Positions 37,300 through 48,544 of a stretch of 64,000 bases of DNA are shown here, piece by piece (positions within the stretch are counted from its first letter, which is position 1; each line of letters opens with the position of its first letter). The translations under genes and the position numbers were made by a program. Below the pieces are notes generated by a model. That model saw only the letters and a program-made list of their open reading frames with translations, made no database searches and was not told the origin of the DNA. Source of the stretch: Candidatus Kapaibacterium sp. (lineage in GTDB: Bacteria; Bacteroidota; Ignavibacteria; Kapaibacteriales; UBA2268); NCBI GenBank assembly GCA_963665665.1, contig OY762428.1, positions 1,120,001-1,184,000 of the forward strand. The letters run 5' to 3'.

Positions 37300-39849
37300 A
37301 TGAAACCCCTACACAGCTTTATTGTTACAGCAAGCCTGCCGCCAGAGATCGAGCAATTAAAAGAACTTGCCTACAATTACTGGTGGTGCTGGAATTCCGA
37401 TGCTAAGGAATTGTTCAACCGAATGGACAGAACGCTTTGGGAGGAAGTGCATCACAACCCGATAATGCTTATAAACAAGCTCGGTCCGGAAAGGCTTGAG
37501 GAATTATCCCGCCAGACTGATTTTACAAGCTTCCTTCATTATGTTCACGAAAAATTTCAGTCCTACATGGAAAGCTCTTCCTGGTTCAGCGAGATGACTG
37601 ATACCGGAAGCGCAAAGATAGCATACTTTAGCCCAGAATATGGAATTAATGAAAGCTTTCCCAATTATTCTGGCGGCCTTGGCATTTTGTCCGGCGACCA
37701 CCTGAAATCATCATCAGACCTTGGATTGCCGTTGGTAGGGGTTGGATTGCTGTACCAGCAGGGATATTTCCGTCAGCGCCTGAACCACAGCGGCTGGCAG
37801 AATGAAATATATAAATATAACGATTTCTTTTCCCTTCCGATTGTTCTTATGCGCGACGGAACGGGCTCGCCAATTGTTATTGACGTTGACCTGCCGCTTG
37901 GCAAAGCCTTCGCACAAATATGGAAGCTTCAGCTCGGAACGGTTTCCCTGTTCCTGCTTGATACCAATATTGATATTAACGGCATAGAAATGTACCGCGA
38001 TATAACCGACCAGCTTTACGGCGGTGACCGCGAAACCCGCATACAACAGGAGATGATACTCGGCATCGGCGGTATGCGCGCCCTGGAAAAAATCGGTATC
38101 GAGCCTGAAGTAATTCATATAAACGAGGGGCACGCAGCTTTTGCACTTCTGGAAAGAACCAGGATTTTCATGCAGAAATATTCTCTTGATTTCCGGACTG
38201 CCAAGCAGATTACAAGGGGTTCTTCGGTATTTACAACACATACGCCCGTGCCGGCTGGAAATGAAACTTTCCGACAGGACAGGATGGATAATTATTTTAG
38301 AAATTATCCCGGTATGCTTGGTTTGTCCCGCGAGGAATTCCTGGAACTCGGCCACGAGGGAAAATACAATAACGAGGAAAAATTTTCTATGACCGTGCTT
38401 GGTTTAAGACTGACATCATATCACAACGGTGTAAGCAAGCTGCACGGTGAGGTATCAAGAAATATGTGGCAGAGAATATGGAAATGCTTTCCTACAAATG
38501 AGATCCCGATTGGACATGTTACCAATGGAATACATACTCAAACATGGGTATCAAGGGAATTCACTCAGTTGTTTGACCGCTACCTGTCTCCTACCTGGAG
38601 AATAGATACAGATAATCCTGATATTTGGGAGGGCGTGGATAATATACCCTCCGAGGAGCTTTATCGCGAGAAACAGAGACGCAGAGTCAGGCTGGTTCTT
38701 TACGTAAGGGAATACTTGTCTAAGAGGCCGAAAAGCTATTTAAATTCAGAACAGTTGAACCAGATAAACGAATTCCTGAATACCGATGCACTTACAATAG
38801 GATTTGCCAGGCGTTTTGCCACTTACAAACGCGCCCAGCTTTTGTTCAGCGATATGGAGAAGCTAACAGCTATCCTGAAAAATATTGACAGCCCGGTTCA
38901 GATAATTATTGCCGGCAAAGCACACCCCCACGATATAGCCGGCAAGGAAGTAATTCAATCAATAATTCAGAAAGTGAAAGATTACGGCCTGGAAAGGCAT
39001 GTAGTTTTCCTTGAGGATTATGATATGGTGATAGCCCGACTGATGGTGAAAGGGTGCGATATTTGGCTTAATACACCGGTTCGCCCAATGGAGGCTTCCG
39101 GCACGAGCGGTATGAAAGCTGCCCTGAACGGAACTCTGAACCTTAGTATTCTCGACGGCTGGTGGGATGAAGCCTTTAACGGTTTGAACGGGTTCGCAAT
39201 TGGCAACGGCCAGGAATACGGCTCGCAGGAAGAACAGAATAATATTGAATCCGGTGATATATATGATATTCTTGAAAATACAATTATCCCGATGTTTTAT
39301 GATCGTTCCAGAACAGGCGTGCCCCAGAAATGGGTTAATTATATGAAGAACTGCATTAAAACTATTGCCCCGGAATTTTCAACAACAAGAATGATTCGCG
39401 ACTACGCCACAAAATATTATATACCGGCTTTAGCAAACTTCAGGGAATTTTCCGCTGAAAATGCCGATAAAGCACGGGAACTTCGCACGTGGAAGGATAA
39501 AATTAAATCAAACTGGGAAAGAGTGGAAGTGATCGACGCGTCAATTATTGGCAACGGGGAGGTATTTGTCGGTAAGGAAATAAAAGTCTCGGCGGTTGTT
39601 GCGCTGGGCGACCTTAGCCCTGATGATGTATTAGTTCAGGTTTATTACGGCTCAATAGATTCCCACGGCAATATAAGCGACGCCGAATATTCTAGACTTG
39701 AACGGGTTAATTCCCAAAATGACTACCATCATTTCGAAGGTATTTACGTTTGTCCCGGAACAGGAATGCAGGGCTTTACAATCAGGGTATTACCGACACA
39801 TCCGTTGATTGTGGAACCTGCTTCAATGTATTTGTGCGCATGGGCGTAA
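37300..39849 (+). CDS. glgP: Alpha-glucan (glycogen) phosphorylase
   Basis: YSGGLGILSGDHLKS, HINEGH, GFARRFATYKRA, EASGTSGMKA. Confidence 0.95.
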   Translation: MKPLHSFIVTASLPPEIEQLKELAYNYWWCWNSDAKELFNRMDRTLWEEVHHNPIMLINKLGPERLEELSRQTDFTSFLHYVHEKFQSYMESSSWFSEMTDTGSAKIAYFSPEYGINESFPNYSGGLGILSGDHLKSSSDLGLPLVGVGLLYQQGYFRQRLNHSGWQNEIYKYNDFFSLPIVLMRDGTGSPIVIDVDLPLGKAFAQIWKLQLGTVSLFLLDTNIDINGIEMYRDITDQLYGGDRETRIQQEMILGIGGMRALEKIGIEPEVIHINEGHAAFALLERTRIFMQKYSLDFRTAKQITRGSSVFTTHTPVPAGNETFRQDRMDNYFRNYPGMLGLSREEFLELGHEGKYNNEEKFSMTVLGLRLTSYHNGVSKLHGEVSRNMWQRIWKCFPTNEIPIGHVTNGIHTQTWVSREFTQLFDRYLSPTWRIDTDNPDIWEGVDNIPSEELYREKQRRRVRLVLYVREYLSKRPKSYLNSEQLNQINEFLNTDALTIGFARRFATYKRAQLLFSDMEKLTAILKNIDSPVQIIIAGKAHPHDIAGKEVIQSIIQKVKDYGLERHVVFLEDYDMVIARLMVKGCDIWLNTPVRPMEASGTSGMKAALNGTLNLSILDGWWDEAFNGLNGFAIGNGQEYGSQEEQNNIESGDIYDILENTIIPMFYDRSRTGVPQKWVNYMKNCIKTIAPEFSTTRMIRDYATKYYIPALANFREFSAENADKARELRTWKDKIKSNWERVEVIDASIIGNGEVFVGKEIKVSAVVALGDLSPDDVLVQVYYGSIDSHGNISDAEYSRLERVNSQNDYHHFEGIYVCPGTGMQGFTIRVLPTHPLIVEPASMYLCAWA

Positions 39850-40040: not shown

Positions 40041-43000
40041 CTACTTCATCACCACAACCTTCTCTACAACAAACTCATTCCCCACTTTTACCCTGATATA
40101 ATATACCCCGTCAGGCAGGTTGGATATATTCAGCGAAGATATACCCGGGAACTCGACAAGTCCGGTCACATCCTGACCCAGGCGGTTGTAAATAGTAGTA
40201 TTTGATTCATTCAGCGGCATTTCAAGCCCTGAGATATTGAGAATAGAAGAAGCTGGGTTTGGGAAGATCAGGGCTGATTGCTTCGTTTCTTTCGATACTT
40301 CAGGTGTTGAGGCAATAATATTATCCGGAAGCTTAACCCTGAAAAGCTTGGCTCGGGATTCATACTCATTTATCGTCTCGGTTAGGAAAACAAGAACGCT
40401 GGAGCTGTCCGAATGAACAATCTGGGCAATTTTTCCGCTCAGCCCCTGAATGTAATAATCGTTAAAAATATGCAGATTTTTATCAAGAATAGTCAGAATC
40501 AGCTTGCCGTCTGTATCATTTCCCCCTGCTATAAGCAGGCTATCATTCAGATTGATAATATAATCGTATCCGTTAATGTTATCTCTTACTATTTTATTGA
40601 AATATTCACCTGCCGGCCCGACAGCCATAAAAGTCCCCTTTCCCTCGGTATCCTTTAAGGTTTTTCCACAGAATACATAACCGAAGTCCTTAATATGGCA
40701 GCCCTCCTCGGGACAGAATCCTTCGTAATTCAGCGTTGTATGCCATCTCTCGCCATCCTCAATATCAATTTCACCGAGATATGAATCGTCCGGGCAATAC
40801 CTTTTGAATAAAATAATACTGCTTTCTGTTTTGTTCAAAACGTGGTAGTGGCTCCATTCCTTAGCAAAAACGGAGTGGTTTTTTAATTCAACTTTTTTCG
40901 ATGGGCTTTCAACAAATACGCTTATTTGATCCCAATTGAAAGGGATAAATGCATGAAAATAAATATCATCGCTAAATTGGTAATAGAAATAATCTTTATA
41001 AGCCTTGCCAAAATGCAAAGTATCATCAGGCCAGTACCACCAAACAATTTTTCTACTTTTAACTATTCCGGTATCATTTAAGGTATAAATACTTGCATCA
41101 TACCAATCAGAATCAGTACTCATATTGAAAAGATATTTATTAATAGTAATATTTACATTATTGTTGCCAGAACCTGTAAGTACTCCTCTCAATTCTTCGT
41201 AATAGGCATCAATCATTTCAGGTTCATCTGATTTTAGATTGATATACTTCTGAGCCAGGTTGATTGGTTGAATATTTTTTTTCTGTAAGTTATAATCCAT
41301 CCAAATCAATTTGTAGGCGCTGTTTACATAATAATTGTCCAATTTTCTGTCATTATACGCTAATGCAGCAATCTCTCCATTAGCTAATTGCACAACTGAA
41401 TGAGCGTAGGAATTTGCATTATTATCAGGTAAAGTTGTAAGAGCCCGAATTTCAAATCCATTGTTTCCCTTTACAACTATGAAGTCTTCCTTTTTCAAAG
41501 TTCTTTCGGCACCATTATCAAATTTAACTGTGAGTGTTACATCATATAAACCATGATATTTATATATATGGGTTGGATTTTCCTCAGCGCTTGTTTCGCC
41601 GTCTCCAAAATCCCAGTACAGACTTTTGATTTTTCCCTCGGACAAATTATAAAATTTTACCTGAAGCGGAGCCTGTCCTTTAACTAAATCAGATTCGAAG
41701 TCAGCCCATACCGGATCAATAACAATAATTTCTTTTTCTGTAGTTGCCAGGTATTGGCCCTTTTGCCCATATAAGCGGGTAGTAAAAGTTTTCGAAATAT
41801 TGTAACTATGAACCGGATTTTCTTCAGTACTTTTTATCACATATCCGAAATCCCACAGATATCCATCAAAATCTCCCCATGAGTAGTTGATGAATTGTAG
41901 AACTGAATCACGTATATACGGTTTTTCAATAACCTCAAATGCAAGCTCGTTTTTTCTCGGCAGAAAATCATGCTTTAATATGATTAAATTATTGCCGGAA
42001 CCTAAAGCCATTTCCTGGATTTTTAAGGGATTGTAGCTATATGAAATCTTCTCTTTTCCGGGTATATCAGTTGAATACATTACTTTGTTAAAATTGAAGT
42101 CATAATAAGAAAGTCGGGTATACTTCTCGTCATCCTTATCAATTTCCTCACCTACGATCAGGAAATCGTTATTCCGTGAAAAAAAACAATCCTTGACATC
42201 ATTGAAACCTAATTCAGAAAAATCGTTTTTAATTAATGTATCAATTTCATCATCGGCAAGATGCCACAGGTAAAGGAGCCTGTTTTCAATAATCGCTGAA
42301 TAATACTTATTATCAACGGATTGGCAGGAATAAGTAACGAAATTGACAACCGGTTCGTTGTAGTCCCTTGCAAAATGATCGCGATAAAGTTTGAAAGTTT
42401 TCCCGGATATTCTATCAAAAAGAGTCAACCTGGATTCGTAATCAAATGAATTCCACCAATGTGCTCCACCTCTGTCGTATCTGTTCATATAAGTCAGATT
42501 GAAATCAGAATTTGAATTTTCGCCCCAATATCCAATTATTGGTTGCTCATTATATATCGAATCACCAGTTTCCAGATTGAAAACCTTATGGAAGTAATCA
42601 GCATCAATTGAACTACCATTGCCTTCAATTGTCTTAATATTTCTGAAAGCTGAAATGTGAACAATGAGGTTGGAATTATCAATTATTGGTTGCAAATATT
42701 TTGCCCCCTGACTAAACTCATAGTTTGATTCATCAGGTTTTTCAAAAACATTTAATACATGTTCAAGGGTATCAATATCAAGCCTGTAAATAATCATTCT
42801 GGCAAATTCCCCGAATTGGCCGCCCATATCATCCGTAAAAACAAAATACTTCCCGTCGCCACTTATATCCACTCCCAGTATATGGCTTTTCAGATCTTCC
42901 CGATTGTAGTACAAATACTCCTTAAAATCCTTCTCGAAAAGAATTTCTCCAGTTTCCCTGTCCCAGAATCGGAGGGTGGAGCCGTCGCTGAAAGTATAGA

Positions 43001-43157
43001 TTTTCTTTCCGTCGGCAGAGTAGCGAATAAAGGATAAAATACCGGCGTCCTGATCGTTCACCAGGTATTGGCCTTTATCAATCCAGTGGCTGTCTGCATA
43101 ACTATAAGCTGTTGTTATAAGCAGGAAGGATAGGATAAGAATTGGCAGCGCTTTCAT
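40041..43157 (-). CDS. T9SS cargo protein: beta-propeller region, two PKD domains, type A CTD
   Basis: Signal peptide; WDFG...STEENPVHSY and WDFGDGETSAEENPTHIY; IFPNPAS...LPDGVYYIRV...EKVVVMK. Confidence 0.88.
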   Translation of the reverse strand: MKALPILILSFLLITTAYSYADSHWIDKGQYLVNDQDAGILSFIRYSADGKKIYTFSDGSTLRFWDRETGEILFEKDFKEYLYYNREDLKSHILGVDISGDGKYFVFTDDMGGQFGEFARMIIYRLDIDTLEHVLNVFEKPDESNYEFSQGAKYLQPIIDNSNLIVHISAFRNIKTIEGNGSSIDADYFHKVFNLETGDSIYNEQPIIGYWGENSNSDFNLTYMNRYDRGGAHWWNSFDYESRLTLFDRISGKTFKLYRDHFARDYNEPVVNFVTYSCQSVDNKYYSAIIENRLLYLWHLADDEIDTLIKNDFSELGFNDVKDCFFSRNNDFLIVGEEIDKDDEKYTRLSYYDFNFNKVMYSTDIPGKEKISYSYNPLKIQEMALGSGNNLIILKHDFLPRKNELAFEVIEKPYIRDSVLQFINYSWGDFDGYLWDFGYVIKSTEENPVHSYNISKTFTTRLYGQKGQYLATTEKEIIVIDPVWADFESDLVKGQAPLQVKFYNLSEGKIKSLYWDFGDGETSAEENPTHIYKYHGLYDVTLTVKFDNGAERTLKKEDFIVVKGNNGFEIRALTTLPDNNANSYAHSVVQLANGEIAALAYNDRKLDNYYVNSAYKLIWMDYNLQKKNIQPINLAQKYINLKSDEPEMIDAYYEELRGVLTGSGNNNVNITINKYLFNMSTDSDWYDASIYTLNDTGIVKSRKIVWWYWPDDTLHFGKAYKDYFYYQFSDDIYFHAFIPFNWDQISVFVESPSKKVELKNHSVFAKEWSHYHVLNKTESSIILFKRYCPDDSYLGEIDIEDGERWHTTLNYEGFCPEEGCHIKDFGYVFCGKTLKDTEGKGTFMAVGPAGEYFNKIVRDNINGYDYIINLNDSLLIAGGNDTDGKLILTILDKNLHIFNDYYIQGLSGKIAQIVHSDSSSVLVFLTETINEYESRAKLFRVKLPDNIIASTPEVSKETKQSALIFPNPASSILNISGLEMPLNESNTTIYNRLGQDVTGLVEFPGISSLNISNLPDGVYYIRVKVGNEFVVEKVVVMK

Positions 43158-43355: not shown

Positions 43356-44075
43356 TCAGAAAATTTTCTCAGCCTCCCGGAAATCTTCAACTGTATCAAG
43401 TTCCATACAATTCAGGCTGCCAACGCTAACGGCAAAGATATGTTTGCCGCTATTGATCAACCTCTGAAATGCCGCCTCGTAGAAAATATTTACCATTTTT
43501 TCTTCAATAATCATTTCGTCCAGGAGTTGAAAAAGGCCGGTAGAAAAGTTAGCGCAGAATTTCTCAATCCCTATTGACTCACCCGCAGCCTCGGCAGGAA
43601 TAACTTCCTTACTTATCTCGGCTATGGAATAATCAGCATTCAGCAGAAGTTTTATTTCTTCATCAGCAACTTCCCCCTCGTCACGCATGGCAAGGCAGTT
43701 AGAATAATCAGAACTCAGCAGCCTTCCAATAATTTTCTCTTCAAAAAGAATATCGCTGTCCAGAAGCAGGAAATCCTCTCCGTCAGCCATTTCTTTCGTA
43801 AGCCACAGGGAATAAATATTATTAGTAGAATCGTAAACATCATTATAAATAAATGTGAACTTGTAATCCTCGTAGCGGGAAATTAAAAAATCTTTTATCT
43901 GTTCCTGCAGATAGCCAGTTACCACAATAAATTCTTTAATACCATTATTTATCAAGGCATTTATAGTTCTTTCAAGAATTGTTTTCCCGGAAATTTTTAA
44001 TAAACACTTCGGGGTATTTTCAGTTAAGGGACGCAATCGGGATGCAATTCCCGCAGCTAAAATCACGGCTTTCAT
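43356..44075 (-). CDS. LicC-like (phosphocholine-type) cytidylyltransferase/NTP transferase
   Basis: ILAAGIASRLRPLT..PKCL, YDSTNNIYSLW, LLDSDILF, GESIGI, ELDTVED. Confidence 0.85.
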   Translation of the reverse strand: MKAVILAAGIASRLRPLTENTPKCLLKISGKTILERTINALINNGIKEFIVVTGYLQEQIKDFLISRYEDYKFTFIYNDVYDSTNNIYSLWLTKEMADGEDFLLLDSDILFEEKIIGRLLSSDYSNCLAMRDEGEVADEEIKLLLNADYSIAEISKEVIPAEAAGESIGIEKFCANFSTGLFQLLDEMIIEEKMVNIFYEAAFQRLINSGKHIFAVSVGSLNCMELDTVEDFREAEKIF

Positions 44076-44989
44076 ATTATTCGTTCCCGTTTAGTGTGTA
44101 AAAAATAAGATTGATACGATGAGTCAATAATTTTTTGAATTACAAGCAATATAATAGCAATAGCATTGGCTGCGGTAAGTAAGCCAATAATATAAATATC
44201 CAGCCTGTTCAGCAAAATGCAAATTATCAGGAAACTTAGCTGGCTGGTAGGGCCGAGATAAGTCCAGAAATGGATGATCTTTTTATTCTTTGCAACAAAT
44301 AGTTCTGCATCAGGGAATTGCATGAAAACGGATTCTTTTCCTGATGCCATTTTCCTTTGAATGCCGGAATAAAAGAAATAGATTCTAAGCAGCATTTTTT
44401 TTCCGGCATTTCCCGGATATTCTTTAAGTTGTTCATATTCCTCGCTGAATTCCCTTAGTTCTTCATCAAGAACACTCTTGCGGCTAAGTTTTATATCAAG
44501 GAAGCGATTCCTGTAGTAGTCAAGTAATGATGCATGAAATACATTGCTAAGCCCGGCAGCAATCATTAATAGCCACCAAATTGCGGGATTATCGGTATTT
44601 TGGGCAAAACCGAAACCGATCCCCATATAAGCAATTAGATTTACTACATAATCAGAAAGCCCGTCCAATACCCTTCCGATTGGCGTACCGTTTTTGTTTA
44701 TTCTTGCAAGCTGCCCGTCAGCACAGTCAAGAACATCGTATAGTATAAACAATATAGCGGCATAAACAAACAGGGATTGAACTCCTGTTGCCAGAAAAAC
44801 TCCGCCAATCACACCAAGGATCATAGCCCAAAGCGTAACCTGATTTGGCGTAATATCTGTGTTTTTAATAATTTTTACAAAAACAAATGCAAGAGGCCTG
44901 TAAAAAATCAGGTCGAGTATTTCCTCGACCTCGATTGATTTTAAAGACCCGATATATTCTTTTACTACCGAACTTTTTTCATTTCTCAT
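44072..44989 (-). CDS. CDP-alcohol phosphatidyltransferase
   Basis: ITPNQVT and full signature DCADGQLAR...G..LDGLSD. Confidence 0.92.
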   Translation of the reverse strand: MRNEKSSVVKEYIGSLKSIEVEEILDLIFYRPLAFVFVKIIKNTDITPNQVTLWAMILGVIGGVFLATGVQSLFVYAAILFILYDVLDCADGQLARINKNGTPIGRVLDGLSDYVVNLIAYMGIGFGFAQNTDNPAIWWLLMIAAGLSNVFHASLLDYYRNRFLDIKLSRKSVLDEELREFSEEYEQLKEYPGNAGKKMLLRIYFFYSGIQRKMASGKESVFMQFPDAELFVAKNKKIIHFWTYLGPTSQLSFLIICILLNRLDIYIIGLLTAANAIAIILLVIQKIIDSSYQSYFLHTKRERII

Positions 44990-46011
44990 GCAAAATATTC
45001 TTTCATAGCTTCAATCAATTCTTTATTCTGTTCCTGTGTTCCAAGCGTAATTCTAAGATGATGGTTCAGAACTTCCTCGTTCATGAATTTTATTATCAGG
45101 TTCCTGGAATCCAGGTGTTTTTTAAGTCCTTCTTTCACGCTTTCCGGAATTTCAACAAGCATAAAATTGGCATGAGATTCAAATACGGTAAATCCCGGGA
45201 ATTTACTTAATTCTTCAGTGAACATTTTTCTGTCAGCAGCCATTTTCTCTGCCACCTGTTTGTAATATTCTCCCGAATCCAGAGCAGCAATTGCAATTTC
45301 CTCGTTAAGTCGGTTATAACCCAGATAGCGGTTAGTAAATTTTACGAGCTTGCTGATATTATCGCCAATAACAGCGTATCCAATCCTAAGGCCTGCCAAA
45401 GCAAAATATTTTGAAAATGTCCTTACAACCATCAGGTTGGGATATTTCCGGACAAGGTTGGCCCTTTCCACGAACCCGTCATAAGCATAAGCCTCGTCTA
45501 TAACGATGATTGCATCATTTATTTCATCAAGTATCCTGAGCAACTGGCCTTCTTCTATTGCATTACCGGTAGGGTTGTTAGGAGCTGAAATAAAAACCAT
45601 ACCCGGCTTTTCTTTCCTGTAAAGGTCAAGCAGCTTATCAACGTTATAATAAAAAGTATTCTCTCCCTTTTCGATAGGATATTCAACATTCACCCCGTCA
45701 ACTTCGTCGGCAATAGCCTTGTAATACCACCAGGAATAAGTGGGCACAAGAAGTTTGGCACCGTTACTAAGGTAGCATTGAACAGCCTGCTTCAATATAT
45801 CTTCGGCTCCATAACCAAGAACGATCCTGTTCTCCGGAAGGTCGAATTCCTCTGCAAGCCTTGCAGCCAGAATGCTTTTACTGCCTTTGGTAAATGATTT
45901 GGAATAACAGCTTATTTTTGAAATATCAGCATTTTTTAAAATATCAAAACATGCCGGTGCAGGCCCGTAGTAATTTTCATTTCTGTCCAGATATAATATT
46001 TCGTCTCTCAT
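44986..46011 (-). CDS. HisC/CobD-like fold-type-I PLP enzyme
   Basis: LDRNEN, PNNPTG, IDEAY, RTFSKYFALAGLRIGY, LRITLG. Confidence 0.88.
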   Translation of the reverse strand: MRDEILYLDRNENYYGPAPACFDILKNADISKISCYSKSFTKGSKSILAARLAEEFDLPENRIVLGYGAEDILKQAVQCYLSNGAKLLVPTYSWWYYKAIADEVDGVNVEYPIEKGENTFYYNVDKLLDLYRKEKPGMVFISAPNNPTGNAIEEGQLLRILDEINDAIIVIDEAYAYDGFVERANLVRKYPNLMVVRTFSKYFALAGLRIGYAVIGDNISKLVKFTNRYLGYNRLNEEIAIAALDSGEYYKQVAEKMAADRKMFTEELSKFPGFTVFESHANFMLVEIPESVKEGLKKHLDSRNLIIKFMNEEVLNHHLRITLGTQEQNKELIEAMKEYFA

Positions 46012-46367
46012 ATTTATCCAAAAAAGTAAAACAATTTTCAGACTTAACTTTTGTTAGTTTTACGTGTATTTTCCCTTAAAAGTTCCAATACATCAACAAT
46101 CTGCATAAACTCATTAAAATTAATAAAATAATTTTCTTTTTTCAAATATGTTTGCCATATTCTTAACAAAAAACAAATAAAAATTATATTTATAATCTTT
46201 CCTGCAATTAAGTAATTATTTGAAGCCGGAAAAATGGAAAAACCACATCGATGGTTTCAGAAGAATTAAAAAATTGAACTAAATTCCAACAATATTATTA
46301 TCTTTGTATTTTGTATTTGCCAATGAAGCAATATTGGTATTTTTTGCAAAAATTGAAATTTTGATTA

Positions 46368-47768
46368 ATGGAAAAACAAAGAACAATAAGCAAATCAGTA
46401 TCCTTTACCGGAACAGGGCTACATACCGGCAAGGATTCAACAATAACATTCAACCCTGCAGAAGCCAATACGGGTTATGTATTTATAAGAAAAGACCTTC
46501 CCGGCCAGCCGGAAATTCAGGCCATTGTAGATAACGTGGTTGATATTTCACGGGGAACAACAATTGCAAACGGAGACGTGAAAGTACTTACTGTAGAGCA
46601 TGTACTTGCAGCTCTTGCCGGGCTGAAGATCGACAACTGCCGGATAGAACTATCGGAAAGCGAACCACCTGTTCTGGACGGCAGCAGTATGCCCTACGTT
46701 GATGCATTACTTACTGCAGGCATAACAGAACTTGATGCTGAAAGAGAATATTTCGTTATAGACGAATCAATCAGCTATTCCAACGAGGACAAAGGCGTGG
46801 AAATAGTTGCCCTGCCACTTGACGACTTCAGGGTAACGATAATGATCGATTATTTCAATCCTGCTCTTGGCAGCCAGCACACGGGATTATTCGATTTAGA
46901 AAAAGAATTTGTTAAAGAATTTGCACCTGCCAGAACATTCTGTTTCCTGACCGAGGTTGAACAGCTTAGAAAATCTGACCTGATAAAAGGCGGAAAACTT
47001 GATAATGCACTGGTAATAGTTGATAAAGACATAACCGAAAATGAAGTCGGCTGGATGATGGATACTTTCAATTTGCAGGAAGCTCCCACAGTTGGCAACA
47101 ACGGATATTTAAATAATACAGAATTAAGATACAAAAACGAGCCGGCAAGGCATAAACTGCTTGATATGCTTGGAGATATGGCATTGATAGGCATACCTGT
47201 AAAAGCGCAAATTCTTGCTGCAAGGCCGGGCCATGAAAGTAATATTGAATTTTCAAAGCTGGTTCGCAGGGCCTATCTGGAACAAAAGCGTGATAACCGC
47301 CTGAAACCATGGAAAAACAAAGGTATTCTCTGGGATATAAATGCCCTGATGGAATTCCTTCCTCACCGTTATCCATTCCTGCTTGTTGACAGGGTTATGG
47401 AATATGACAGAGAAAAGAAAGTTATTCTCGGATATAAGAATGTTACTTTCAACGAGCCATTCTTCCAGGGACATTTCCCAGGGCAGCCAATCATGCCGGG
47501 AGTACTGATCCTTGAAGCATGCGCACAGATGGCAGGCTTGATAATGCTGAACGAAATAGACGAACCTGATAAATATCTTGGACTCTTCAGCACCATAAAA
47601 AATGCGAAACTTAGAAAACCGGTTGTTCCCGGAGACCAGTTGGTAATTGAAGCCAGGATGTCCGGAAAGAGATTTAATATTTACTCATTTACTGCCACCG
47701 CCTATGTTAACGGCCAGGTAGTGGCAGAATCTGATTTTACAGCAGCTTTAGTTAACAGGGAACTATGA
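46368..47768 (+). CDS. lpxC-fabZ: Bifunctional LpxC-FabZ
   Basis: GTGLHTG, TVEHVLAAL, ARTFCF, HKLLD, then LPHRYPFLLVD and GHFPGQPIMPGVL. Confidence 0.96.
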   Translation: MEKQRTISKSVSFTGTGLHTGKDSTITFNPAEANTGYVFIRKDLPGQPEIQAIVDNVVDISRGTTIANGDVKVLTVEHVLAALAGLKIDNCRIELSESEPPVLDGSSMPYVDALLTAGITELDAEREYFVIDESISYSNEDKGVEIVALPLDDFRVTIMIDYFNPALGSQHTGLFDLEKEFVKEFAPARTFCFLTEVEQLRKSDLIKGGKLDNALVIVDKDITENEVGWMMDTFNLQEAPTVGNNGYLNNTELRYKNEPARHKLLDMLGDMALIGIPVKAQILAARPGHESNIEFSKLVRRAYLEQKRDNRLKPWKNKGILWDINALMEFLPHRYPFLLVDRVMEYDREKKVILGYKNVTFNEPFFQGHFPGQPIMPGVLILEACAQMAGLIMLNEIDEPDKYLGLFSTIKNAKLRKPVVPGDQLVIEARMSGKRFNIYSFTATAYVNGQVVAESDFTAALVNREL

Positions 47769-48544
47769 ACGAAACTTTAATTCATCCTACAGCTATTGTT
47801 TCTCCAAAAGCTGAACTGGGCACGGGGGTTAGCGTCGGGCCTTTCAGCATAATCGAAGACGACGTTCAGGTAGGAGACAACACAGAGATACGATCAAGTG
47901 TGGTATTGGCAAACGGCGCAAGGATCGGTAGCGATTGCAGAATTCATTCATCATGCGTAATTGCTACAGAACCTCAGGATTTGAAATACAAAAATGAGAG
48001 AACTTACGCCTTTGTCGGAGACAGAACAGTGCTCAGAGAATACGTAACTGTTAACCGCGGAACAGTGGAAACAGGAAAAGCCGTTGTCGGAGACGATTGC
48101 CTGATAATGACTTACTGCCATGTGGCACATGATTGCCGTGTCGGTAACAACGTAATTATGTCCAACGTGAGCCAGCTTGCAGGGCATGTAACCATAGAGG
48201 ACTGGGTAATACTTGGCGGTGTAGCAAAGATACATCAGTTCTGTACTGTCGGCAGCCACTCCATGATCGGGGCAGATGTAAAAATAGTGAAAGATGTTCC
48301 GCCCTTCACACTTGTTGGACGCCAGCCAGCTAAAGTTGAAGGTGTAAATAAGATAGGCCTTAGAAGAAGGGGATTCAAATCCAAAACGATCAGGGCCATC
48401 GAAGAATTTTATGATACAGTTTTATTTTCGGGTATGAACAATACCGAAGGTATTAAGCATTACAAAGCAAAAGGAGACCTATTAGAAGAAGTAGAATACT
48501 GCATCAAATTTATCGAGAATTCAAAACGGGGAATTCACAGGTAA
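47765..48544 (+). CDS. lpxA: UDP-N-acetylglucosamine acyltransferase
   Basis: IHPTAIV hexapeptide repeats, PQDLKY, HVAHDC, IHQF, GLRRRGF. Confidence 0.96.
   Translation: MNETLIHPTAIVSPKAELGTGVSVGPFSIIEDDVQVGDNTEIRSSVVLANGARIGSDCRIHSSCVIATEPQDLKYKNERTYAFVGDRTVLREYVTVNRGTVETGKAVVGDDCLIMTYCHVAHDCRVGNNVIMSNVSQLAGHVTIEDWVILGGVAKIHQFCTVGSHSMIGADVKIVKDVPPFTLVGRQPAKVEGVNKIGLRRRGFKSKTIRAIEEFYDTVLFSGMNNTEGIKHYKAKGDLLEEVEYCIKFIENSKRGIHR

What the first reader, a model, noticed from the sequence alone, without database searches (positions are those of the whole stretch)
43356..46011. Candidate Kennedy-type pathway for an amino-alcohol phospholipid: PLP enzyme + CDP-alcohol phosphotransferase + cytidylyltransferase
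Seen: three minus-strand genes joined by 4-bp ATGA overlaps (44986-44989, 44072-44075), divergent from lpxC-fabZ-lpxA, with no his or cob genes and no choline kinase or transporter nearby. Known: HisC/CobD-fold enzymes act on phosphorylated substrates, and Campylobacter capsule homologs make serinol-phosphate from DHAP or ethanolamine-phosphate from phosphoserine. LicC-type enzymes form CDP-amino-alcohols, and CDP-alcohol phosphotransferases transfer them to diacylglycerol, ceramide or a polyol. Inference: the operon makes its own phospho-amino-alcohol, activates it with CTP and builds a head group such as phosphatidylserinol, PE made without Pss/Psd, or a ceramide analogue. The N-terminal NEN motif (HisC-like, with no CobD-type HGG) favours transamination, and therefore serinol-phosphate.
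Basis: partly seen in the sequence, partly recalled or inferred. Interest (0 to 1): 0.75.

Follow-up and report, generated by a model that had tools for sequence, protein, structure and literature searches.

The report
Self-feeding CDP-amino-alcohol head-group operon
Three overlapping genes appear to make a small phosphorylated amino-alcohol, activate it with CTP and attach it to a membrane acceptor, which would be an undescribed bacterial route to an amino-phospholipid head group.

Summary
Three minus-strand genes joined by two ATGA overlaps encode a HisC-like PLP enzyme, a CDP-alcohol phosphotransferase and a LicC-like nucleotidyltransferase, divergent from lpxC/fabZ-lpxA. The PLP gene is neither hisC nor cobD. 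It scores below both equivalog cut-offs. The 99.5%-complete, single-contig genome has no HisD, IGPD, CbiB, CobS or PEP mutase, and two other genomes with the trio carry separate true hisC genes. The linkage is real. All three genes are adjacent in 9 of 13 related loci, in two different gene orders. 30 of 120 longer relatives of the nucleotidyltransferase are fused to this same PLP clade, and 2 are fused to a CDP-alcohol transferase. The PLP clade branches with HisC rather than CobD and keeps HisC-type catalytic residues. Its N-terminal arm is missing and its side-chain pocket is rebuilt. The same genome holds a paralogous transferase pair next to inositol-phosphate synthase, a parallel for the pathway logic. 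Best reading: transamination (most simply DHAP to serinol-phosphate), CTP activation, then transfer to a lipid. Product and acceptor are inferred, not shown. No paper describing the module was found. New variant of a known kind; interest 0.68.

The parts
44986..46011 (-). HisC-derived PLP enzyme (341 aa), the proposed head-group-forming aminotransferase. It has no N-terminal arm, and its motifs are DRNENxYGPAP, GYGAED, SWWYYK, RTFSKY and NRYLGY.
   Evidence: PF00155 at 142 bits. TIGR01141 hisC at 243 bits, below the 276.55 cut-off, and TIGR01140 CobD at 144 bits, below 290.55. Forms a separate clade with SH-aLRT 100. Conserved-site table. Homologues of 340-350 aa cover 99-100% of the 341-aa reading.
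44072..44989 (-). CDP-alcohol phosphotransferase (305 aa), an all-helical membrane protein with the complete catalytic motif D88xxD91G92xxA95R96x8G105xxxD109xxxD113.
   Evidence: PF01066 at 47 bits. Motif residues are invariant or at least 90% conserved in 47 sequences. AF2 model with pLDDT 92.3. Best solved fold is AF2299, TMq 0.51-0.54. 31% identical to the paralogue in the genome's inositol-lipid cluster.
43356..44075 (-). LicC-like nucleotidyltransferase (239 aa), the proposed CTP:amino-alcohol-phosphate cytidylyltransferase.
   Evidence: PF00483 and PF12804. Full-length match to S. pneumoniae LicC 1jyk, E 6.6e-25, followed by the PntC-AEPT fusion 6pd1 and IPCT 2xme. Fused to the PLP clade or to CDP-OH transferases in relatives.
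44986..44989 (-). ATGA overlap: stop of the PLP gene and start of the transferase gene.
   Evidence: Read directly.
44072..44075 (-). ATGA overlap: stop of the transferase gene and start of the nucleotidyltransferase gene.
   Evidence: Read directly.
46012..46367 (.). 356-bp divergent intergenic region shared with lpxC/fabZ. It is presumed to hold the operon's promoter.
   Evidence: Position only. The sigma-70-type scan found no more sites than shuffles did (14 against 11.4 +/- 3.2).

Best explanation
The three genes form one operon that makes, activates and installs its own polar head group. Step 1 (inferred): the HisC-derived PLP enzyme transaminates a small 2-oxo-alkyl phosphate into an amino-alcohol phosphate. 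The simplest case is dihydroxyacetone phosphate plus glutamate giving serinol phosphate. Step 2 (inferred from family and fusions): the LicC-like enzyme condenses this product with CTP to give a CDP-amino-alcohol. Step 3 (inferred from family, motif and paralogy): the membrane CDP-alcohol phosphotransferase moves the phospho-amino-alcohol onto a hydroxyl of a membrane acceptor, most likely diacylglycerol or a ceramide. The result would be an amino-phospholipid such as phosphatidylserinol. What is shown: the gene structure; that the PLP gene is not hisC or cobD; the conserved linkage and fusions; and the HisC-side placement. What is not shown: the substrate, the nucleotide and the acceptor. My sub-odds are 0.8 for the make-activate-transfer scheme, 0.75 for transaminase given the scheme, 0.6 for DHAP/serinol-P given transaminase, and 0.7 for a lipid acceptor.
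For: Operon: two 4-bp overlaps. Not histidine synthesis: hisC model at 243 bits, below the 276.55 cut-off. No other hisC-like gene is over the cut-off; the next best scores 129.6 bits. There is no HisD and no IGPD in a 99.48%-complete one-contig genome, while the controls ring in 14 of 14 genomes. G041 and G042 carry the trio's PLP gene (254 and 249 bits) plus separate hisC genes at 351, 323 and 362 bits. Not cobamide synthesis: CobD model at 144 bits, below 290.55, and no CbiB or CobS. Not phosphonate: no PEP mutase. Linkage: PLP, transferase and NTP-transferase genes are adjacent in 9 of 13 related loci. Five have the order PLP-CDPOH-NTP and four have CDPOH-PLP-NTP-CDPOH (Pfam). Fusions: of the 120 longer relatives listed for the NTP transferase, 30 are fused to a PLP domain 37-52% identical to this one. 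Of those, 28 run PLP-NTP and 2 run NTP-PLP. Two more are fused to a PF01066 domain. Reaction type: in both trees the module clade (SH-aLRT 100) sits with HisC, across a 98-100 branch from CobD. All 30 module sequences keep the HisC-type positions Y55, N157, D184, Y187, S213-K214, R222 and R335 (E. coli numbering). CobD has F at 187, T at 213 and R at 339. Rebuilt pocket: D85 to E, Y110-G111-M112 to W-W-Y, R322 to K, and new R10 and R228, all invariant; the N-terminal arm is absent. Substrate class of the activating enzyme: it is closest to LicC, and a 51%-identical relative is fused to an AEP transaminase. Both are enzymes for small amine-bearing phospho compounds. In-genome parallel: a paralogous CDP-OH transferase (31% identity) and an NTP transferase sit with myo-inositol-1-phosphate synthase, a HAD hydrolase and LPG_synthase_TM. 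This matches the cluster for which passages of PMC9246714 propose, unconfirmed, a Kennedy-like route through CDP-inositol. Precedent: a passage of PMC11800397 states that Cj1437 transaminates DHAP to (S)-serinol-P.
Against: No assay or lipid data exist, and no RNA run holding the locus was listed. Sequence cannot fix PLP reaction specificity. The trees used the quick search, only 4 HisC and 8 CobD references (all CobD from one phylum), and none of the C. jejuni enzymes. The roles I assign to E. coli HisC residues (Asp85 and Tyr110 for the imidazole; Tyr20, Arg322 and Arg335 for the phosphate) are recalled, not taken from a call. The fold search does not separate CDP-alcohol donors from CDP-DAG donors: TMq is only about 0.5 to AF2299 and 0.33-0.34 to CHPT1 and CEPT1. 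Close relatives of the NTP transferase are also fused to LicD or TagF-like domains, so the same kind of activated head group goes onto glycans in other organisms. The module was not found in the 40 nearest genomes and was found in 11 of 401 genomes of the phylum sample, so it is an accessory trait. Adjacency to lpxC/lpxA is not seen in the other loci.
Confidence: 0.45

Rival explanations
1. The PLP enzyme is a decarboxylase acting like CobD or Cj1436. It would convert phosphoserine to phosphoethanolamine (or phosphothreonine to aminopropanol phosphate), giving CDP-ethanolamine and then PE by a bacterial Kennedy route.
For: Phosphoserine is available, since SerC scores over its cut-off. The enzyme belongs to the same HisC/CobD superfamily. 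58 of the 120 longer NTP-transferase relatives are fused to a PLP domain only 21-28% identical to ours. The five of these that were scanned scored CobD at or above hisC, and some also carry a methyltransferase. The ten placed in the tree group with CobD. So a decarboxylase-plus-cytidylyltransferase route probably exists elsewhere. A passage of PMC11800397 describes Cj1436 as a serine-phosphate decarboxylase.
Against: This gene's clade lies on the HisC side of a 98-100 branch. It carries the HisC-type residues Y187, T211, S213, G339 and E38, where CobD and the CobD-like fusions differ. It scores 243 bits on hisC against 144 on CobD. The genome already has psd beside a PF01066 gene, the apparent classical PE route.
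Confidence: 0.15
2. The make-and-activate steps are as proposed, but the acceptor is not a bulk membrane lipid. The phospho-amino-alcohol goes onto a soluble alcohol (a DIPPS-like phosphodiester solute), lipid A or LPS, or a glycan.
For: The best NCBIfam match of the NTP transferase is IPCT/DIPPS, and the nearest solved transferase is AF2299. NTP-transferase relatives at 44-54% identity are fused to LicD (P0266, P0280) or Glyphos_transf (P0267, P0271). In this genome the operon is divergent from lpxC/fabZ-lpxA. A LysE-type exporter gene lies upstream in 3 of 5 trio-order loci.
Against: The lpx adjacency is not repeated in the other loci. The closest relative with any functional context is the paralogue in the inositol-lipid cluster. 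IPCT/DIPPS scores of 89 and 35 bits are far below the 580 cut-off.
Confidence: 0.15
3. The enzyme is a transaminase, but the substrate is another 2-oxo phosphate. Candidates are 3-phosphohydroxypyruvate (giving phosphoserine, then CDP-serine, then PS), glycolaldehyde phosphate, or a ketose-1-phosphate giving an amino-polyol head group.
For: The invariant new arginines R10 and R228 could bind a carboxylate. HisC chemistry requires only an R-CO-CH2-O-P substrate (established knowledge of the family).
Against: SerC is present, so the cell already makes phosphoserine. The invariant acidic E70 at the side-chain site would repel a carboxylate, and the bulky W94-W95-Y96 suggests a small pocket (both are my inference). 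The other candidate substrates are not abundant central metabolites (my knowledge).
Confidence: 0.12
4. The PLP gene is an ordinary hisC or cobD that lies next to two unrelated genes by chance.
For: It is the best hisC-model hit in the genome, and sources name its homologues 'histidinol-phosphate aminotransferase'.
Against: It scores below both equivalog cut-offs. The genome has no HisD, IGPD, CbiB or CobS. Separate hisC genes exist in G041 and G042. Adjacency holds in 9 of 13 loci and there are 30 fusions.
Confidence: 0.02
5. The module makes a phosphonolipid: the PLP enzyme aminates phosphonoacetaldehyde to 2-aminoethylphosphonate, which is then CMP-activated as by PntC.
For: The second-best solved match of the NTP transferase is the PntC-AEPT fusion 6pd1. 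A relative 51% identical to it is fused to an AEP transaminase.
Against: There is no PEP mutase in the 99.48%-complete genome.
Confidence: 0.01

Closest known systems
Kennedy-type CDP-alcohol pathway (LicC or CCT-type cytidylyltransferase plus choline/ethanolamine phosphotransferase, as in eukaryotes and, from my recall, Treponema denticola)
   Same: The logic is the same: phospho-alcohol plus CTP gives a CDP-alcohol, which a PF01066 enzyme transfers to a lipid hydroxyl. The NTP transferase aligns with LicC over its full length, and the transferase has the complete DxxDGxxAR...GxxxDxxxD motif.
   Different: The head group is not imported and phosphorylated by a kinase. It is made in the operon by a PLP enzyme. 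The transferase resembles CHPT1 and CEPT1 only weakly (TMq 0.33-0.34).
Bacteroides vulgatus-like 'alternative' inositol-lipid cluster (Heaver et al. 2022, PMC9246714; passages read)
   Same: It pairs an NTP transferase with a roughly 300-aa CDP-alcohol phosphatidyltransferase and a dedicated head-group-forming enzyme. The genome studied here has such a cluster too, and its transferase is the closest contextualised relative of ours at 31% identity.
   Different: There the feeder enzyme is myo-inositol-phosphate synthase, accompanied by a HAD hydrolase. Here it is a HisC-like aminotransferase with no HAD. The two NTP transferases are only 25% identical over 114 residues. That pathway is itself unconfirmed.
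Campylobacter jejuni capsule enzymes Cj1437 (DHAP to (S)-serinol-P) and Cj1436 (Ser-P to ethanolamine-P) (PMC11800397; passages read)
   Same: They show that PLP enzymes can make free amino-alcohol phosphates from central metabolites.
   Different: Their products are joined as amides to glucuronate by an ATP-grasp-type enzyme. They are not CDP-activated or passed to a PF01066 enzyme.
PntC-AEPT fusions of phosphonate pathways (PDB 6pd1)
   Same: A LicC-like cytidylyltransferase is fused to the aminotransferase that makes its amine substrate. Our NTP transferase matches 6pd1 at E 1.6e-13, and P0265 is such a fusion at 51% identity.
   Different: The aminotransferase there is class V (PF00266) acting on a phosphonate. 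Here it is a class I/II HisC-type enzyme, and the genome lacks PEP mutase.
IPCT/DIPPS of hyperthermophiles (PDB 4mnd, 2xme) and AF2299 (4o6m)
   Same: A cytidylyltransferase plus a CDP-alcohol phosphotransferase, sometimes fused. AF2299 is the nearest solved structure.
   Different: Those make soluble di-inositol phosphate from inositol-1-phosphate. Scores against NF041135 (89 and 35 bits) are far below the 580 cut-off.
HisC (histidinol-phosphate aminotransferase) and CobD (threonine-phosphate decarboxylase)
   Same: Same fold and PLP-binding residues. The enzyme is closest to HisC: best PDB match 8bj1 at E 3.4e-40, against 4.9e-13 for CobD 1lc5.
   Different: It scores below both equivalog cut-offs, lacks the N-terminal arm, has a rebuilt side-chain pocket, and its genome has neither a His nor a cobamide pathway.

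Membership tests
HisC, histidinol-phosphate transaminase (TIGR01141 equivalog) | Score over the curated cut-off of 276.55 bits | tested here: not met
   243.1 bits and 242.7 bits in the genome search. True hisC genes in G041 and G042 score 323-362 bits.
HisC, histidinol-phosphate transaminase (TIGR01141 equivalog) | Works within a histidine pathway (HisD and IGPD present) | tested here: not met
   No PF00815 and no PF00475 match in the 99.48%-complete genome. Controls ring in 14 of 14 genomes.
HisC, histidinol-phosphate transaminase (TIGR01141 equivalog) | N-terminal arm with the conserved Tyr (E. coli Tyr20) and the Asp85/Tyr110 side-chain site (residue roles recalled) | tested here: not met
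   The arm is absent. D85 is E and Y110-G111-M112 is W-W-Y in 30 of 30 module sequences.
HisC, histidinol-phosphate transaminase (TIGR01141 equivalog) | PLP and catalytic residues Y55, N157, D184, Y187, S213-K214, R222, R335 | tested here: met
   All are kept in 30 of 30 module sequences.
CobD, threonine-phosphate decarboxylase (TIGR01140 equivalog) | Score over the 290.55-bit cut-off, with the HxHGG N-terminus | tested here: not met
   143.9 bits. The protein has DRNEN where CobD has DFSVN, and no HGG. It is separated from 8 CobD sequences by a 98-100 branch.
CobD, threonine-phosphate decarboxylase (TIGR01140 equivalog) | Cobamide loop-assembly genes (CbiB, CobS) in the genome | tested here: not met
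   No PF03186 and no PF02654 match.
CDP-alcohol phosphatidyltransferase (PF01066) | Pfam gathering score and the motif D1xxD2G1xxAR...G2xxxD3xxxD4 | tested here: met
   47.2 bits against a cut-off of 22. D88, D91, G92, A95, R96, G105 and D109 are invariant and D113 is at least 90% conserved in 47 sequences.
CDP-alcohol phosphatidyltransferase (PF01066) | Uses a CDP-alcohol donor with a lipid acceptor (the Kennedy direction) rather than CDP-DAG with a soluble alcohol | not testable with these tools
   The fold search does not discriminate. The direction is inferred from the linked and fused cytidylyltransferase.
LicC-type CTP:phospho-alcohol cytidylyltransferase | Full-length similarity to LicC, with the N-terminal (L/I)AAGxGxR(L/M) nucleotide-binding signature of the fold (signature recalled) | tested here: met
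   1jyk matches at E 6.6e-25 over residues 1-238, including ILAAGxxxRLRPLTENTPK. PF00483 and PF12804 are over their cut-offs.
LicC-type CTP:phospho-alcohol cytidylyltransferase | Specificity for CTP and for phosphocholine | not testable with these tools
   No curated equivalog matched over its cut-off. A choline substrate is unlikely because no choline kinase or transporter is linked.
IPCT/DIPPS (NF041135) | Score over the 580-bit cut-off, with inositol-phosphate synthase as feeder | tested here: not met
   89.3 bits (NTP transferase) and 35.3 bits (transferase). MIPS sits with the paralogous pair 4 Mb away, not here.
B. vulgatus-like alternative inositol-lipid cluster | NTP transferase, CDP-OH transferase and HAD hydrolase next to MIPS | tested here: not met
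   The trio has no MIPS or HAD neighbour. The genome's true copy of that cluster is at C1:5198516-5204575.

The most novel reading that the evidence does not exclude
The module makes phosphatidylserinol, the 2-amino analogue of phosphatidylglycerol, from DHAP in three steps through CDP-serinol. That activated intermediate and that lipid class turned up in none of my literature searches. In the four-gene versions (CDPOH-PLP-NTP-CDPOH), the second, divergent transferase could use serinol's remaining hydroxyl to build a bis-phosphatidyl 'amino-cardiolipin'. HisC-like and CobD-like enzymes would then have been coupled independently to LicC-like enzymes, as two parallel bacterial routes to self-made amino-alcohol head groups.
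Probability: 0.25. Interest if true: 0.8.

Novelty: new variant of a known kind. Interest (0 to 1): 0.68.

Why it matters
Bacterial amino-phospholipids are thought to arise almost entirely through CDP-diacylglycerol (the Pss/Psd route). Kennedy-type routes in bacteria are rare and depend on imported choline. A compact operon that makes its own amino-alcohol from a glycolytic intermediate, activates it and installs it would be a third way to build a zwitterionic or cationic head group. It would explain some 'unidentified aminophospholipids' in Ignavibacteria, Calditrichia and Bacteroidota. It would correct hundreds of 'histidinol-phosphate aminotransferase' annotations. It would also give lipid geochemists and synthetic biologists a three-gene cassette for a new head group. 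The PLP-cytidylyltransferase fusions make the idea testable with one or two purified proteins.

Tried and rejected
The promoter and terminator scan found no more than shuffles did (14 against 11.4 promoter-like sites, 4 against 2.9 terminator-like sites) and no terminator after the last gene. Fold search of the transferase model confirmed only the family, not donor or acceptor. The protein-atlas look-up returned only generic PF01066 clusters. Literature: no paper was found linking a CDP-alcohol transferase, a HisC-type aminotransferase and a cytidylyltransferase, or naming phosphatidylserinol, CDP-serinol, CDP-aminopropanol or a bacterial serine-phosphate decarboxylase route. Subscription journals and supplementary files were not searchable. 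I first read the Fe-ADH-NTP-transferase fusions as glycerol-1-phosphate dehydrogenase fusions. NCBIfam shows generic alcohol dehydrogenase matches instead, so I dropped that idea. A LysE-like partner gene has no close copy in this genome: only a 25-28% match at C1:2594373-2595068. My first ORF filter picked wrong-strand ORFs in L049, L055 and L057; this was corrected by six-frame reading and tblastn. Two alpha-oxoamine-synthase-like genes (418 and 381 bits, both below the TIGR01825 cut-off) do not settle whether the organism makes ceramides. The related-loci scan with a single protein returned only 3 loci.


Full report
OBSERVATION. The window holds three minus-strand ORFs at exactly the stated coordinates: 44986-46011 (341 aa), 44072-44989 (305 aa) and 43356-44075 (239 aa). 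Read on the minus strand, bases 44989-44986 and 44075-44072 both spell ATGA, so each downstream start codon overlaps the upstream stop. Pfam assigns Aminotran_1_2 (142 bits), CDP-OH_P_transf (47 bits) and NTP_transferase/NTP_transf_3 (51 and 48 bits). The divergent neighbours are an LpxC+FabA-domain fusion and LpxA. On the other side lie a PKD/T9SS-tail protein and a glucan phosphorylase. No his gene, cob gene, choline kinase or transporter is among the neighbours scanned.

THE PLP GENE IS NEITHER hisC NOR cobD. It scores 243 bits on the hisC equivalog model (cut-off 276.55) and 144 bits on the CobD model (cut-off 290.55). The window's genome is a single 5.46-Mb contig rated 99.48% complete. 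In it this gene is the best hisC-like match and nothing reaches the cut-off; the next best match scores 129.6 bits. The genome has no histidinol dehydrogenase and no imidazoleglycerol-phosphate dehydratase, although both searches ring in all 14 control genomes. So there is no histidine pathway for this enzyme to serve. The genome also lacks CbiB and CobS, so a cobamide role is out. It lacks PEP mutase, so a phosphonate role is out. SerC is present over its cut-off. A psd gene lies beside a PF01066 gene, so phosphoserine is made by the ordinary enzyme and PE probably is too; I did not type that PF01066 gene by family. Two other genomes that carry the trio (a Calditrichia MAG and an Ignavibacteriae MAG) hold separate hisC genes at 351, 323 and 362 bits beside the trio's PLP gene at 254 and 249 bits. 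A third, a Bacteroidota MAG, has only the trio's copy at 207 bits.

THE THREE GENES ARE A CONSERVED UNIT. The transferase has 1823 relatives at E <= 0.001 among 3637 scored candidates. The best non-self hits are 47-55% identical and come from Ignavibacteriales, Melioribacteraceae, Calditrichia and Bacteroidota, and none carries a functional name. The PLP enzyme has a matching set of 55-63%-identical relatives, mostly named 'histidinol-phosphate aminotransferase'. Seventeen pairs from the two hit lists share the same longest-contig length, which is a weak hint of co-location. I examined 13 loci from other genomes that hold a transferase homologue: 3 from the species-genome scan and 10 from a 401-genome sample of the phylum. 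By tblastn with the three window proteins, supported by Pfam, they fall into these groups:
- 5 loci have the order PLP-transferase-NTP transferase (L014, L015, L016, L048, L049).
- 4 loci have a four-gene form, transferase-PLP-NTP transferase-transferase (L054-L057).
- 1 locus has PLP and transferase without an NTP transferase (L053).
- 1 locus is cut by a contig end just upstream of the transferase and NTP transferase (L052).
- 2 loci have only tandem transferases (L050, L051).
All three families are therefore adjacent in 9 of 13 loci, in two different arrangements. The trait is patchy. None of the 40 nearest genomes has an orthologue; two have 29-32% paralogues. Eleven of 401 genomes in the phylum sample have a homologue at E <= 1e-50, all of them labelled 'same class'.

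GENE FUSIONS. Among the 120 longer relatives listed for the NTP transferase (191 reached E <= 0.001), 28 are PLP-NTP fusions. Their PLP halves are 42-52% identical to the window's PLP enzyme and their NTP halves 40-60% identical to the window's NTP transferase. Two more have the reverse order (PLP 37%, NTP 48%), and two are fused to a PF01066 domain (P0278, P0281). Other partners of close relatives (44-54% identity) are an AEP transaminase (P0265), LicD (P0266, P0280), TagF-like Glyphos_transf (P0267, P0271) and iron alcohol dehydrogenases. More distant relatives are fused to HAD, GpsA or choline kinase. A second, distant class comprises 58 of the 120, with the order NTP-PLP and a PLP half only 21-28% identical to ours. 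In the five of these that I scanned, the PLP domain scores CobD at or above hisC, and some also carry a methyltransferase domain.

WHICH CHEMISTRY. Two trees were built with IQ-TREE quick search, so support is SH-aLRT only. In both, the operon-linked PLP enzymes, including those of the four-gene clusters and the class-A fusions, form one clade with support 100. That clade sits with HisC, across a 98-100 branch from CobD and the class-B fusions. All 30 module sequences keep Y55, N157, D184, Y187, S213-K214, R222 and R335 (E. coli numbering). They share with HisC, and not with CobD, the residues Y187 (CobD has F), T211 (S), S213 (T), G339 (R) and E38 (hydrophobic). They differ from HisC in several invariant ways: the N-terminal arm is absent, D85 is E, Y110-G111-M112 is W-W-Y, R322 is K, and there are new R10 and R228. 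From my recall of the E. coli HisC structures, Asp85 and Tyr110 hold the imidazole ring, and Tyr20, Arg322 and Arg335 hold the phosphate. On that basis I infer a retained phosphate site and a smaller, rebuilt side-chain pocket, which fits a small R-CO-CH2-O-P substrate. DHAP is the obvious abundant one, and a passage of PMC11800397 records the precedent that Cj1437 converts DHAP to (S)-serinol-P. The NTP transferase aligns with LicC over its full length (E 6.6e-25), then with PntC-AEPT and IPCT. The transferase has the complete catalytic motif and models confidently (pLDDT 92.3). The fold search returns only AF2299 at TMq about 0.5 and cannot tell donor or acceptor.

AN IN-GENOME PARALLEL. About 4 Mb away the genome has a cluster of MIPS, HAD, LPG_synthase_TM, a CDP-OH transferase (31% identical to ours), an unknown gene, DUF2141 and an NTP transferase. 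This matches the 'alternative' inositol-lipid cluster for which passages of Heaver et al. (PMC9246714) propose, without confirmation, a Kennedy-like CDP-inositol route. The trio looks like the same design with the inositol-phosphate synthase replaced by an aminotransferase. It also shows that the trio is not the cell's inositol pathway.

VERDICT. The most likely mechanism is transamination to an amino-alcohol phosphate (serinol-P being the simplest), CTP activation, then transfer to a membrane acceptor. I put 0.8 on the make-activate-transfer scheme and about 0.25 on the full specific chain ending in phosphatidylserinol. The rivals are a decarboxylase route to CDP-ethanolamine and PE, a non-lipid acceptor, and another oxo-phosphate substrate. 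Ordinary hisC or cobD, and a phosphonate route, are effectively excluded. Five literature searches found no description of this module or of its proposed intermediates. Subscription journals and supplements were not searchable. I rate it a new variant of a known kind.

LIMITS. There is no biochemical or expression evidence. The reference sets in the trees are small, and the C. jejuni enzymes are missing from them. The residue roles are recalled, not taken from a call. The flanking genes vary between loci, so neither the LysE-like neighbour (3 of 5 trio-order loci) nor the scattered glycolysis and glycogen neighbours can be relied on.

Noticed in passing
own genome C1:5198516-5204575 (L017:2517-8576), outside the window: A complete 'alternative' inositol-lipid cluster: MIPS, HAD hydrolase, LPG_synthase_TM, CDP-OH transferase, a 292-aa protein with no Pfam match, DUF2141 and an NTP transferase. 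This organism is not a gut Bacteroides or Prevotella.
   Followed up: partly
whole own genome: No HisD and no IGPD were found, so the organism is probably a histidine auxotroph. CbiB, CobS and PEP mutase were also not found.
   Followed up: partly
L014:4071-4859, L015:4026-4826, L048:4965-5783: A 262-272-aa LysE-type translocator gene lies directly upstream of the PLP gene in 3 of 5 trio-order loci. The window's genome has only a 25-28% relative elsewhere (C1:2594373-2595068). Its role is unexplained; it could be an exporter, a flippase or a chance neighbour.
   Followed up: partly
L054, L055, L056, L057: Four-gene versions of the module hold two divergent CDP-alcohol transferases flanking the PLP and NTP-transferase genes. 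The upstream one is about 31-37% identical to the window's enzyme. The downstream one is 23-25% identical in the full-length alignment. This suggests two acceptors or two successive transfers.
   Followed up: partly
proteins P0290-P0358: A large class of NTP-transferase fusions carries a CobD-like PLP domain, and some (P0297, P0358) also have a methyltransferase domain. The sources name Deltaproteobacteria, Gammaproteobacteria, Agrobacterium rhizogenes and Helicobacter sp. for these. They may form a decarboxylase-based route to CDP-ethanolamine or CDP-choline-like donors.
   Followed up: partly
window 44986-46011: The protein collection's own version of this gene product (P0121) is 319 aa and covers 87% of the ORF. 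Homologues of 340-350 aa cover 99-100% of the 341-aa reading, and the invariant DRNENxYGPAP motif lies at residues 9-19 near its N-terminus. This suggests the shorter record lacks the N-terminal end and that 46011 is the true start; I did not check which end P0121 lacks.
   Followed up: yes
window 37300-39849; L048:2430-4547; L053:8926-11389; L056:8197-9282; L057:7691-8803: Carbohydrate and glycolysis genes lie within a few kb of the module in 5 loci: glucan phosphorylase, an amylase/CBM48 protein, GAPDH with PGK, PFK and a ROK kinase. This may be chance, or a link to triose-phosphate supply.
   Followed up: no
L015:8775-10771: A CotH kinase gene and a PAP2-family phosphatase gene follow the trio in the Ignavibacteriae MAG. 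A PAP2 enzyme could supply diacylglycerol. This was seen in one locus only.
   Followed up: no
window 46368-48544: LpxC and a FabZ-type dehydratase are fused in one 466-aa ORF, and lpxA overlaps its end by 4 bp (47765-47768).
   Followed up: no
window 40041-43157: A 1038-aa secreted protein with a PKD domain and a T9SS C-terminal sorting domain lies just downstream of the operon on the same strand. This places the organism in the T9SS-bearing FCB group.
   Followed up: no
G173:C61:7522-8367 (L041, L051): The transferase homologue in this genome is read through one in-frame TGA.
   Followed up: no
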